Shown in pieces: positions 40,399 through 40,905 of a stretch of 64,000 nt of DNA. Under the pieces are notes generated by a model. The model did not search any database. It was not told the origin of the DNA and saw nothing but the letters and a program-made list of their open reading frames with translations. Positions within the stretch are counted from its first letter, which is position 1. Each line of letters begins with the position of its first letter. The stretch lies in the NCBI RefSeq assembly GCF_044792175.1, contig NZ_CP172866.1; one strand, 5' to 3'. Source of the DNA: Corallococcus coralloides (GTDB taxonomy: Bacteria; Myxococcota; Myxococcia; Myxococcales; Myxococcaceae). The translations under genes were made by a program, and so were the position numbers.

Positions 40399-40823
40399 AA
40401 CCGCCCTCCAGGGCCGGGAAATGTCAGACCGGTGCGGATAATCCACGCCCGCCCTCAGCAATTGGGGGCGGGCGCGTTCGTAGGGATGGGGAGGCGGCTT
40501 TCCCATGACGCCCTGCGTGTGCGCAGGTTATAGATGGGAATAGCTCGATTTTCGTGGAGATTGGTGGGCGAGGCGTGGTAATGGCGCCTCGGGCGTTGCC
40601 GGAAGCGGCAAGCGTGCTCACCCTGGGTGTGGCGGATCAGGCGGGTGCAGGAATCACCGCGGGTACGCAGGGGTTTTGAAGGAAGCGGACGCCGAGCGCG
40701 GGGCCCGGGACACGGGACGCGGGGCGGACGGCAGGAAACATGAAGGTGGCGTGGACGGGCCCCTGGGCCGCTCTACATCCGCCGCGACTTTACGAGGCCC
40801 TGCCAGTCGGCACGCGGCCCGGG

Positions 40824-40872
40824 GCGCTCGCCGGTAAAACTCCAAGGTGCCGGCGAGCGCTCTCTTTTTTCT
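40824..40872 (+). terminator. Strong intrinsic terminator on the plus strand: an 11-bp perfect stem GCGCTCGCCGG/CCGGCGAGCGC, a 15-nt loop, then TCTCTTTTTTCT
   Basis: Read directly. It is the only hairpin-plus-T-tract terminator I found in the window. It lies 426 nt downstream of the GT4 stop, with no credible plus-strand ORF in between. Confidence 0.6.
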
Positions 40873-40905
40873 ACACCATCGAATCGGGCCGGAGCCCCTC
40901 TCCGC

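What the first reader, a model, noticed from the sequence alone, without database searches (positions are those of the whole stretch)
40399..40905. A 500-bp non-coding tract ending in the window's only textbook intrinsic terminator. It could be a long 3' UTR or an sRNA.
Between the GT4 stop (40398) and the gene C stop (40906) there is no convincing ORF. At 40824..40872 the plus strand has an 11-bp perfect GC-rich stem (GCGCTCGCCGG ... CCGGCGAGCGC) followed by TCTCTTTTTTCT. On the minus strand the same element would read as an A-tract followed by a hairpin, so it cannot terminate gene C. It therefore terminates a plus-strand transcript. That transcript is either an unusually long 3' UTR of the waaL-GT4 operon or an independent small RNA. 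The AT-richer stretch at ~40520-40560 (GGTTATAGATGGGAATAGCTCGATTTTCG) could carry its promoter.
Basis: seen in the sequence. Interest (0 to 1): 0.5.

Follow-up and report, generated by a model that had tools for sequence, protein, structure and literature searches.

The report
Dead gene remnant, conserved terminator hairpin
The 500-bp "empty" stretch is the decayed remains of a small gene still intact in related myxobacteria, and it ends in that gene's terminator hairpin, whose loop sequence is unchanged across two bacterial families, which hints at a regulatory RNA role.

Summary
Window 40399-40905 has no coding signal. It ends in the cleanest intrinsic-terminator-like element in the window: stem 40821-40836/40848-40863, an 11-nt loop, and T6 at 40865-40870.

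The tract is not a purpose-built UTR. In Myxococcus, Pyxidicoccus, Hyalangium, Archangium, Cystobacter and Vitiosangium, a 228-aa DUF4097 ("toastrack") gene lies between the GT4 gene and this same hairpin. Corallococcus, including this window, and Citreicoccus have lost the reading frame. They keep collinear remnants: the upstream region, an N-terminal block, the 3' coding end and the 3' UTR.

The middle of the relic evolves on average as fast as 4-fold sites. It nevertheless contains conserved islands.

The last ~90 nt form a variable hairpin P1, then hairpin P2, then a U-tract. This part is 98-100% identical within Corallococcus. P2 is conserved across both families. Six stem pairs covary, and 69 G·U cells would be A·C on the other strand. 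The 9-nt loop ACUCCAAGG never changes. The element is single-copy, matches no Rfam family, and survives several independent losses of the gene.

Best reading: a plus-strand terminator that probably has a second, RNA-level role, as a candidate 3'-end-derived sRNA or a protein-binding hairpin. Transcription was not tested.

The parts
39244..40398 (+). GT4-family glycosyltransferase gene. Its start overlaps the end of the upstream Wzy_C / O-antigen-ligase-family gene (37872-39254). It is the upstream flank and a possible source of read-through transcription.
   Evidence: ORF list; Pfam Glyco_trans_1_4, Glycos_transf_1 and Glyco_transf_4; codon-position GC.
40399..40505 (+). Retained upstream region (former promoter / 5' UTR) of the lost DUF4097 gene. 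It is more conserved than the relic body: 0.82-0.95 identity within Corallococcus.
   Evidence: nhmmer aligns it to the GT4-to-ATG spacer of Myxococcus and Pyxidicoccus loci, e.g. L059 E 7.7e-11 and L023 E 9e-9; rates.
40421..40442 (+). Conserved motif ATGTCAGACCGGTGCGGATAAT, with consensus ATGTCAGA(C/G)CG-N5-GGATA(A/C)T. Found in Myxococcaceae loci only. Role unknown; candidate promoter or operator.
   Evidence: Pattern listing across loci; invariant columns in A1. It is not called as a sigma-70 promoter.
40446..40474 (+). GC-rich hairpin CGCCCGCCCUC-AGCAAUU-GGGGGCGGGCG with no U-tract. It could be a weak end of the GT4 transcript or a 5' stem-loop of the relic transcript.
   Evidence: Folds. 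The weak sub-threshold Rfam CRISPR-DR9 hit (21 bits against a cutoff of 45) only reflects the hairpin shape.
40506..40782 (+). Decayed coding region of the DUF4097 ('toastrack') gene. The former ATG is at 40506, followed by a 12-codon stub. The relic is ~340 nt shorter than the intact gene. On average it evolves at the 4-fold-site rate, but with conserved islands at 40534-43, 40549-58, 40575-87, 40633-41, 40693-706, 40714-23 and 40738-51.
   Evidence: Collinear nhmmer matches to intact genes; no tblastn hit; rates; island clustering of 7 runs >=8 against 0.49 expected, with 0 of 5000 permutations reaching it.
40527..40558 (+). It is the relic of coding nt ~90-180. The core GGGAATAGC plus a T-rich run is kept in all independently decayed loci.
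   Evidence: Anchor alignment across intact and decayed loci; retained-segment map. The homology is transitive through L059. A direct profile of the intact block does not hit the window.
40793..40821 (+). P1, a small hairpin just upstream of the terminator. The structure is present in every lineage examined, but with different sequences.
   Evidence: Fold; per-lineage folds of 24 sequences; 100% identity within Corallococcus.
40821..40863 (+). P2, the terminator hairpin. It has a 16-pair stem (40821-40836 with 40848-40863) and an 11-nt loop at 40837-40847. The 9-mer ACUCCAAGG (40839-40847) is invariant.
   Evidence: Sequence; pattern present in 41 genome loci and 8 metagenome contigs; 96.3% of cells paired, 6 pairs with compensatory change, 69 G·U cells; covariance model scores 79 bits on + and 21 bits on -.
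40865..40870 (+). U-tract (T6) that completes the intrinsic terminator. Alignable conservation stops immediately after it.
   Evidence: The T-run is present in all 32 distinct sequences of A2.
40906..44817 (-). Gene C (1303 aa, no family match), convergent with the tract. It is the first gene of a ~10.4-kb insertion (40873 to about 51290) that other Corallococcus lack. It is context only and not part of the element.
   Evidence: ORFs; Pfam and NCBIfam give no hit; synteny by tblastx.

Best explanation
The tract is the remnant of a small gene for a 228-aa secreted DUF4097 ('toastrack') beta-repeat protein. Ancestrally the gene lay between the GT4 gene and this hairpin. Corallococcus and Citreicoccus lost the reading frame. 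They kept the upstream ~100 nt, some islands and, almost unchanged, the gene's 3' end: a structurally conserved hairpin P1, a sequence-conserved hairpin P2 and a U-tract. P2 with the U-tract works on the plus-strand RNA as a Rho-independent terminator. In this genome it ends whatever plus-strand transcription crosses the relic, whether read-through from the Wzy_C-GT4 operon, transcription from the old promoter, or both. This keeps that transcription out of the convergent genes. Nine loop nucleotides are invariant across Myxococcaceae and Archangiaceae while the stem drifts by compensatory changes. The module also survives repeated loss of its gene. The hairpin is therefore probably more than a terminator: a recognition element for a trans-acting partner, most plausibly the functional stem-loop of a stable 3'-end-derived small RNA in organisms reported to lack Hfq. 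Shown here: non-coding status, homology to the gene, RNA-level and strand-specific constraint, single copy. Inferred: termination, transcription, and any trans-acting role.
For: Non-coding.
Intact gene in the same slot in six genera: tblastn at 40-100% identity over ~215-228 aa. The family is named DUF4097 with PF13349 in nearly all homologues.
Collinear residual homology of the Corallococcus tract to the 5' UTR, N-terminal block and 3' coding end.
Rates: middle of the tract 0.85/0.75/0.57 identity against GT4 4-fold sites 0.85/0.76/0.55. The 3' 89 nt is 0.98-1.00 within Corallococcus and 0.89 to Citreicoccus. Conservation ends at the T-tract.
P2: exact pattern in 41 loci and in 8 metagenome contigs, 5 of which carry the DUF4097 gene just upstream by tblastn while the other 3 have Hyalangium-type upstream sequence. 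96.3% of cells are paired and 6 of 16 pairs show compensatory changes. The closing pair occurs as G-C, U-A, C-G and A-U, and 0/500 shuffles reach the covariation score. The invariant columns include the whole 9-mer loop.
Strand: 69 G·U cells; model scores 79 against 21 bits; fold z -3.4 against -1.4.
P1 is present with different sequences in all 24 lineages folded.
The module is kept after independent decay in L059/L011, L046, the Hyalangium-type loci and L040.
P2 is as conserved to M. xanthus (0.96 over 45 nt) as the best-conserved coding segments nearby.
M. xanthus is reported to lack Hfq, and its sRNAs are reported to pair near Shine-Dalgarno sites (10.1101/2025.09.11.675593). The loop carries an anti-SD-like CUCC.
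Against: There are no expression data, so transcription, termination and a separate stable RNA are all untested.
No target or partner was found. CCUUGGAG occurs nearby only as a coding motif of the adenosine deaminase gene.
No consensus promoter is found in the tract, nor in the Hyalangium-type loci at the tool's threshold.
RNAalifold finds almost no covariation for a global fold of the 500-nt tract (covariation term -0.68).
Retention of the hairpin after gene loss could simply reflect the need to terminate the GT4 operon before convergent genes.
The N-terminal-block homology is only transitive. A direct profile search does not hit the window.
The most distant orthologue of the gene, which sits in another genomic context, has no such module. 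The module is therefore clade-specific and not an obligate partner of the gene.
Confidence: 0.6

Rival explanations
1. Plain terminator and junk. The tract is a dead gene, and the hairpin is only a strong intrinsic terminator, now serving the Wzy_C-GT4 operon with a ~470-nt accidental 3' UTR. Its sequence conservation would reflect selection for a very stable hairpin between convergent genes, not any trans-acting role.
For: Canonical geometry: 16-pair GC stem plus T6. The position between convergent genes holds in all genera. The relic body evolves at the neutral-like average rate. No partner or target was found. There is no Rfam family.
Against: Termination does not require a particular loop. 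Here the stem tolerates compensatory change at 6 pairs, while the 9 loop bases are invariant in 32 distinct sequences from lineages whose 4-fold sites are saturated. An 11-nt loop is larger than the 3-8-nt loops allowed for by the terminator scan. P1 is also structurally maintained.
Confidence: 0.3
2. Independent sRNA gene. A promoter inside the relic, at or near the conserved block 40527-40558, would drive a ~300-nt non-coding RNA ending at P2. The conserved islands would be its functional parts.
For: The N-terminal block is retained in every independent decay. In Hyalangium-type loci even the 5' UTR and start codon were deleted around it. In those loci it reads TTGAT(G/A/T)-17 nt-TA(C/A/G)C(G/C/T)T, with a variable spacer of constant length. 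Conserved islands cluster far beyond chance in the Corallococcus relic.
Against: No sigma-70-like site passes the scan in the window or in the Hyalangium-type loci. In Corallococcus the position where a -35 would lie is variable. The internally repetitive beta-repeat gene could lose its middle by repeat-mediated deletion, which would leave the same end pieces by chance. There is almost no covariation for a global structure.
Confidence: 0.2
3. DNA-level element. The inverted repeat would be a protein-binding palindrome, or an integration or recombination site marking the edge of the variable region that starts right after the T-tract.
For: The gene content downstream of the T-tract differs between Corallococcus species. 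It includes a ~10.4-kb insertion in this window.
Against: The constraint is strand-asymmetric. 69 G·U cells would be A·C mismatches on the other strand, and the model scores 79 against 21 bits. There is no second full or partial copy at the far end of the insertion or anywhere else in the window. No integrase-like domain was found in the large ORFs scanned.
Confidence: 0.04

Closest known systems
Rho-independent (intrinsic) transcription terminators
   Same: GC-rich hairpin immediately followed by a U-tract, at the end of a plus-strand unit that faces convergent genes. It is asymmetric: the U-tract is on one side only.
   Different: The loop is 11 nt, and 9 of its bases are invariant across two families. 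The stem sequence is conserved as strongly as the best-conserved coding segments nearby. An upstream hairpin is conserved with it. Ordinary terminators drift freely in sequence.
3'-UTR-derived small RNAs that share the terminator of their parent mRNA (e.g. CpxQ, SroC and DapZ in enterobacteria; from my own knowledge)
   Same: The element sits at the 3' end of an mRNA in genera with the intact gene. It starts right at the stop codon and is more conserved than the coding sequence upstream. It consists of one extra hairpin plus a terminator hairpin and U-tail.
   Different: No evidence of processing or accumulation is available. The candidate seed lies in the terminator loop rather than in a single-stranded stretch. 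The organisms are reported to lack Hfq. The parent gene has been lost in several lineages while the module stays.
Pxr sRNA of Myxococcus
   Same: A myxobacterial RNA built of stem-loops and ending in a terminator-like hairpin, in an organism reported to lack Hfq.
   Different: Neither flank here is a sigma-54-type regulator or an acetyltransferase; the flanks are a GT4 gene and pyrD or gene C, whereas pxr is described as adjacent to pxrA/MXAN_1079 (PMC11928866). In Pxr, SL1 and SL2 are conserved and the third stem-loop varies (abstract of PMC5684412). Here the terminal hairpin is the conserved one. No Rfam family matched.
DUF4097 / 'toastrack' beta-strand repeat proteins (PF13349; LiaG/LiaX/YvlB-like C-terminal domain)
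   Same: The intact gene in sister genera matches PF13349 and is named this way by its sources. The window tract is its collinear remnant.
   Different: In the window there is no open frame and no tblastn signal. Only nucleotide-level remnants remain.
Ms1 (RF02566), the only structured-RNA family with a sub-threshold Rfam hit
   Same: The last ~45 nt align to the Ms1 terminator hairpin.
   Different: The score is 16.7 bits against a gathering score of 162. 230 of 304 model positions are skipped. It is a generic terminator resemblance and not membership.

Membership tests
Intrinsic terminator | Stable GC-rich hairpin on the transcribed strand | tested here: met
   16-pair stem. The hairpin alone folds at -30.9 kcal/mol. 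The module folds at -46.3 kcal/mol, z -3.4.
Intrinsic terminator | U-rich tract directly 3' of the hairpin, on one strand only | tested here: met
   T6 at 40865-40870. On the minus strand the hairpin is followed by CCCCGGGCC. The T-run is present in all 32 aligned sequences.
Intrinsic terminator | Actually stops RNA polymerase (RNA 3' ends at the U-tract) | not testable with these tools
   Needs Term-seq, 3' RACE or in-vitro transcription.
Any Rfam 15 family | Covariance-model score at or above the family's gathering threshold | tested here: not met
   0 matches in the whole window. The best sub-threshold hits are Ms1 at 16.7/162 bits and CRISPR-DR9 at 21.1/45 bits.
3'-UTR-derived sRNA | Lies at the 3' end of an mRNA and shares its terminator | tested here: met
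   In genera with the intact gene, the conserved module begins at the stop codon (TAG-CUUUCGAGG...) and ends at the U-tract.
3'-UTR-derived sRNA | Conservation exceeding that of neighbouring non-coding or synonymous positions | tested here: met
   0.98-1.00 against 0.75-0.85 at 4-fold sites within Corallococcus. The loop is invariant across families.
3'-UTR-derived sRNA | Accumulates as a discrete stable RNA | not testable with these tools
   No transcriptome data are available here.
3'-UTR-derived sRNA | Seed with conserved complementary target sites | tested here: inconclusive
   Only 64 kb plus ~9-kb loci could be searched. CCUUGGAG is found 4 further times in the window (2.2 expected), and recurrently only inside the adenosine deaminase coding region.
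Pxr sRNA | Pxr-type architecture (conserved SL1 and SL2, variable third stem-loop) | tested here: not met
   Here the upstream hairpin P1 varies in sequence and the terminal hairpin P2 is the conserved one. This is the reverse of Pxr as described in the abstract of PMC5684412. The flanks are GT4 and pyrD or gene C. No Rfam family matched. No Pxr sequence was compared directly.
Pseudogene of the DUF4097 (toastrack) gene | Same genomic slot as the intact gene in relatives | tested here: met
   The slot between the GT4 stop and the P2 hairpin is shared in all loci.
Pseudogene of the DUF4097 (toastrack) gene | Residual collinear sequence similarity to the intact gene | tested here: met
   The Corallococcus profile hits the 5' UTR, the N-terminal block and the 3' coding end of intact loci. 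Citreicoccus matches the last ~140-185 nt of the CDS plus UTR at E 3e-12 to 3e-14. Caveat: a direct N-terminal-block profile does not hit the window.
Pseudogene of the DUF4097 (toastrack) gene | Loss of the open reading frame | tested here: met
   There is a 12-codon stub after the old ATG, no tblastn hit at E<=10, no codon-position GC signal, and frame-breaking indels between species.
Pseudogene of the DUF4097 (toastrack) gene | Neutral, homogeneous evolution | tested here: inconclusive
   The mean rate equals that of 4-fold sites. However, invariant columns are strongly clustered: 7 runs >=8 against 0.49 expected.
Dispersed repeat (REP-like) or att site | Multiple copies per genome region, or duplication at insertion borders | tested here: not met
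   There is one copy in 64 kb and one per locus. The other metagenome matches are chance hits inside coding sequence. A genome-wide copy number could not be measured.

The most novel reading that the evidence does not exclude
The P1-P2 module would be a previously undescribed, Hfq-independent regulatory small RNA of Myxococcaceae and Archangiaceae. It would have arisen as the 3' end of a DUF4097 mRNA and become the selected product of the locus. That is why the coding sequence has been lost repeatedly while the module, and possibly an internal promoter block, is kept. The invariant loop ACUCCAAGG, with its anti-Shine-Dalgarno-like CUCC, would be the seed that pairs with ribosome-binding sites of target mRNAs.
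Probability: 0.3. Interest if true: 0.65.

Novelty: new member of a known kind. Interest (0 to 1): 0.4.

Why it matters
Few regulatory RNAs are known in myxobacteria. In the literature I searched, Pxr is the only characterised one, and a 2025 interactome preprint adds unnamed candidates. This hairpin is single-copy and clade-wide, has an invariant loop, and outlives its gene. That makes it a concrete, cheap-to-test candidate: one northern probe and one loop mutant.

It would also be a clear natural example of a protein-coding locus being reduced to its 3'-end RNA. If the loop turns out to be irrelevant, the locus is still a useful annotation lesson. A long 'intergenic' tract in a 70% GC genome can be a dead gene, and its terminator can be inherited by the upstream operon.

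Tried and rejected
- **Rfam.** Gathering and E-value modes gave no family. The Ms1 and CRISPR-DR9 hits are generic hairpin resemblances.
- **tRNA/tmRNA.** None found.
- **Hidden ORF.** Rejected by codon-position GC and frame-breaking indels.
- **Exact-protein look-up of GT4.** Not on record.
- **Sigma-70 promoter scan.** Nothing in the window tract or in three Hyalangium-type loci. My manual TTGATN-17-TANCNT reading is below the tool's threshold and is only a lead.
- **Global structure of the 500-nt tract.** The RNAalifold covariation term is -0.68, and only 8 of 121 pairs show compensation. A structured long RNA is not supported.
- **Helix enclosing the 3' coding end.** An RNAalifold run on 14 Myxococcus/Pyxidicoccus sequences found no supported structure upstream of P1.
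- **Pseudoknot.** Pairing between the post-stop CUUUCGAG and the P2 loop is possible in Myxococcus, by eye. The upstream sequence is not conserved in Hyalangium or Archangium, so I dropped it.
- **Kissing interaction.** The 5' hairpin loop (GCAAUUGG) could pair with the P2 loop, but this is not conserved in Myxococcus, so I dropped it.
- **Local target search for CCUUGGAG.** Only a coding motif in the adenosine deaminase gene recurs.
- **att-site idea.** No duplicated hairpin part in the window.
- **Direct profile of the intact N-terminal block against the window.** No hit. Homology of that block rests on the decayed intermediate L059.
- **Module downstream of the most distant orthologue (P0052).** Absent.
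- **Literature.** No paper on DUF4097 in Myxococcus. I could not map this locus to the sRNA candidates of the M. xanthus interactome preprint.
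Full report

Yes. The GT4 ORF ends at 40398, and the convergent ORF 'gene C' ends at 40906. The window has 70.5% GC, so real genes show third-position GC of 0.9-1.0. That signal stops at ~40330-40400 on the GT4 side and restarts at ~40915 on the gene C side. Between them no frame exceeds 0.78.

The stem extends to 16 pairs (40821-40836 with 40848-40863). It encloses an 11-nt loop (40837-40847), and a T6 run follows at 40865-40870.

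The last 90 nt fold into two hairpins at -46.3 kcal/mol (z = -3.4). The reverse complement gives -39.1 kcal/mol (z = -1.4).

The consensus scan of 35-46 kb finds only this terminator-like site and no sigma-70-like promoter. My scan of the full window ranks it as the cleanest, at -30.9 kcal/mol with T6. One weaker hairpin+TTTT lies on the minus strand near 8311. Rfam gives nothing at gathering thresholds and only two generic hairpin resemblances below threshold. There are no tRNA or tmRNA genes.

**2. What the tract is**

Using the GT4 protein as query, I fetched 76 related loci from species-representative genomes. The window is closest to Corallococcus, with 93-95% GT4 identity to six of the Corallococcus loci (90% to two more). 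blastn of the tract shows that its full length is conserved only within Corallococcus, at 82-90%. Its last ~60 nt, in contrast, are 82-95% identical in Myxococcus, Pyxidicoccus, Hyalangium, Archangium, Cystobacter and Vitiosangium. In most of these loci they lie ~800 nt downstream of the GT4 stop instead of ~470 nt.

In those loci the gap is filled by a 228-aa ORF (M. xanthus L018:5257-5943). It has a hydrophobic N-terminus, and tblastn finds it at 40-100% identity in about 30 loci. It scores 22.8 bits against a cutoff of 22.9 for Pfam DUF4097 'toastrack' and resembles the C-terminal parts of LiaX and LiaG. Its database homologues are named 'DUF4097 family beta strand repeat-containing protein' and carry PF13349.

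Corallococcus and Citreicoccus give no tblastn hit at all. Even so, an nhmmer profile of their tracts aligns collinearly to three parts of the intact loci:
- the spacer between the GT4 stop and the ATG;
- an N-terminal coding block, most clearly through the decayed Myxococcus locus L059 (E 7.7e-11);
- the last ~140-220 nt of the coding sequence plus the 3' UTR (L017 and L023, E ~1e-19).

Citreicoccus matches the 3' coding end of intact genes at E 3e-12 to 3e-14.

The window keeps the old start region: GGGGAGG, then ATG at 40506, followed by only 12 codons. The tract is therefore a pseudogene relic about 340 nt shorter than the gene. One caveat applies. A profile of the intact N-terminal block alone does not hit the window, so that piece of the homology is transitive.

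**3. How it evolves**

| Region (window against other loci) | Closest Corallococcus | More distant Corallococcus | Citreicoccus |
|---|---|---|---|
| Relic middle | ~0.85 | ~0.75 | 0.57 |
| GT4 4-fold degenerate sites | ~0.85 | ~0.76 | 0.55 |
| First ~90 nt after the GT4 stop | 0.82-0.95 across Corallococcus | | 0.65 |
| Last 89 nt | 0.98-1.00 across Corallococcus | | 0.89 |

Alignable similarity ends immediately after the T-tract.

The relic middle is not homogeneous. Invariant columns cluster into 7 runs of 8 or more, against 0.49 expected, and 0 of 5000 permutations reach this.

RNAalifold finds almost no covariation for a global fold of the tract. The covariation term is -0.68, and only 8 of 121 pairs show compensation. 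I therefore do not claim a structured 500-nt RNA.

**4. The conserved 3' module**

The pattern GCCGG-N4-ACTCCAAGG-N2-CCGGC occurs once in the window and once, on the plus strand, in 41 genome loci. A metagenome scan returned 28 stretches. Eight of them have the full stem and T-tract. Five of those carry the DUF4097 gene just upstream, and the other three have Hyalangium-type upstream sequence. The remaining 20 stretches are chance matches inside coding sequence.

I aligned 32 distinct sequences and counted base pairs:
- 96.3% of the 512 pair cells are standard pairs, against 42-53% when the 3' arm is slid.
- 6 of 16 pairs show changes on both sides.
- The loop-closing pair occurs as G-C (10), U-A (8), C-G (7) and A-U (4).
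- No shuffle out of 500 reaches the observed covariation score.
- 69 cells are G·U. These would be A·C mismatches on the other strand.

A covariance model built from the alignment scores the window at 79 bits on the plus strand and 21 bits on the minus strand. It finds no other copy in the window or in more distant loci. The selected object is therefore a plus-strand RNA hairpin.

The stem drifts, yet the nine loop bases ACUCCAAGG are invariant in every sequence. Against M. xanthus the hairpin is as conserved as the best-conserved coding segments of the neighbouring genes: 0.96 over 45 nt.

Just upstream, every lineage examined has a second small hairpin, P1, built from different sequences. 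In Myxococcus the conserved non-coding stretch starts exactly at the stop codon. Some Archangium and Cystobacter loci have the stop codon within 8-20 nt of P2, so P1 is not universal.

**5. Repeated loss of the gene, retention of the module**

Besides Corallococcus and Citreicoccus, the ORF has decayed in these loci:
- L059 and L011 (Myxococcus and Pyxidicoccus);
- L046;
- the Hyalangium-type loci L036, L049, L077, L079 and L089;
- L040, partly.

All of them keep P2.

Third-position GC of the gene is only 0.72-0.80 in Myxococcus and Hyalangium. It is 0.90-0.95 in Archangium, Cystobacter and Vitiosangium. This fits relaxed selection in the clades where the gene is lost.

All decayed loci also keep the same N-terminal block, coding nt ~60/90-180/210, with the core GGGAATAGC. 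In the Hyalangium-type loci the 5' UTR and start codon were deleted around it. There the block reads TTGAT(G/A/T)-17 nt-TA(C/A/G)C(G/C/T)T with a variable spacer. That looks promoter-like, but it is below the scan's threshold.

There is a neutral alternative. The beta-repeat part of the gene is internally repetitive and may be prone to internal deletion, which would leave the same end pieces. I leave this block unexplained.

**6. Context**

In most genera the gene directly downstream of the hairpin, and convergent with it, is pyrD. Its window homologue is at 52958-54046. An adenosine deaminase gene follows. Most Corallococcus have an ornithine cyclodeaminase-family gene there, with its window homologue at 51315-52337.

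In this window ~10.4 kb (40873 to about 51290) is inserted right after the T-tract. It carries three very large minus-strand ORFs without family matches. No copy of the hairpin lies at its far end. Gene C is thus a recent neighbour, and the hairpin belongs to the upstream, plus-strand side.

The most distant orthologue of the DUF4097 gene sits in an unrelated context and has no such module. The module is therefore specific to the Myxococcaceae/Archangiaceae clade that shares the GT4-DUF4097-pyrD arrangement.

**7. Mechanism**

Shown: P2 plus the U-tract has all the sequence features of a Rho-independent terminator on the plus strand, and it is under RNA-level selection.

Inferred: it terminates the DUF4097 mRNA where the gene is intact. 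In Corallococcus it terminates whatever crosses the relic. That could be read-through from Wzy_C-GT4, because the only hairpin after GT4 (40446-40474) has no U-tract. It could also be transcription from the retained upstream region, which carries a conserved motif at 40421-40442.

The invariant 11-nt loop is not explained by termination. I infer a specific partner, either RNA or protein. The loop contains an anti-Shine-Dalgarno-like CUCC. M. xanthus is reported to lack Hfq and to have sRNAs that pair near Shine-Dalgarno sites (10.1101/2025.09.11.675593). A 3'-end-derived sRNA is therefore the most attractive reading, but no target could be identified with the sequence available.

My estimates:
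- about 0.85 that the tract is a relic and the hairpin a terminator;
- about 0.5 that the hairpin has an additional specific function;
- about 0.3 that it is a trans-acting sRNA.

**8. Comparison, novelty and verdict**

The element works like an intrinsic terminator and resembles 3'-UTR-derived sRNAs. It is not a member of any Rfam family. It is not Pxr-like in architecture: Pxr has conserved SL1 and SL2 and a variable third stem-loop (abstract of PMC5684412), which is the reverse of what is seen here. It is not a dispersed repeat or an att site.

The pseudogene part is ordinary. The hairpin is clade-wide, has an invariant loop and outlives its gene. I could not find it described in Rfam or in the papers I could search.

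I rate it a new member of a known kind, with interest 0.4. It is a solid and cheaply testable candidate regulatory RNA, but there are no expression or target data.

Noticed in passing
window 40873-51290: About 10.4 kb is present here but absent from other Corallococcus loci, which resume synteny with window 51297-52337 within 20-110 nt of the T-tract. It holds three giant minus-strand ORFs with no Pfam or NCBIfam family: 40906-44817 (1303 aa), 44856-47276 (806 aa, weak sub-threshold Hint hit) and 47290-51141 (1283 aa). It may be a strain-specific island of large secreted or toxin-like proteins.
   Followed up: partly
window 40527-40558; L059:5260-5310; L046:5260-5300; L036:5140-5190: The same N-terminal block of the dead DUF4097 gene (core GGGAATAGC plus a T-rich run) is retained in every independently decayed locus. 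It is nearly invariant within Corallococcus. In Hyalangium-type loci it reads like TTGATN-17-TANCNT. It could be an internal promoter, an RNA element or a deletion-bias artefact; this is unresolved.
   Followed up: partly
window 40421-40442 and 40446-40474: The motif ATGTCAGA(C/G)CG-N5-GGATA(A/C)T lies right after the GT4 stop and is conserved in Myxococcaceae but not in Archangiaceae loci. A strong GC hairpin without a U-tract follows it. It is a candidate promoter or operator of the lost gene, or the 3' end of the GT4 mRNA.
   Followed up: partly
L018:5257-5943 and orthologues: The intact DUF4097 gene has unusually low third-position GC in Myxococcus and Hyalangium (0.72-0.80, against 0.89-0.96 for GT4). 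In Archangium, Cystobacter and Vitiosangium the values are normal (0.90-0.95). Rare A/T-ending codons are conserved in its N-terminal block.
   Followed up: partly
window 40534-40751: Seven islands of 9-14 invariant columns lie inside an otherwise fast-evolving relic: 40534-43, 40549-58, 40575-87, 40633-41, 40693-706, 40714-23 and 40738-51. Several are also nearly identical in Citreicoccus.
   Followed up: partly
window ~8270-8311, minus strand: A second terminator-like element, GTCAAGCCAGGGGGCGGAGCCTACCCCCCTGGAATGAC followed by TTTT (-22.7 kcal/mol).
   Followed up: no
window 39244-39254: The GT4 start (39244) overlaps the end of the Wzy_C / O-antigen-ligase-family gene (39254) by 11 nt, consistent with translational coupling in one operon. 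A DUF6178 gene (36092-37753) lies upstream.
   Followed up: no
L028, L037, L041, L035 (Archangium loci): Here the DUF4097 gene and its hairpin lie 1.8-3.8 kb further from GT4 than elsewhere. Extra DNA has therefore been inserted between GT4 and the DUF4097 gene, while the gene-hairpin pair stays together.
   Followed up: no
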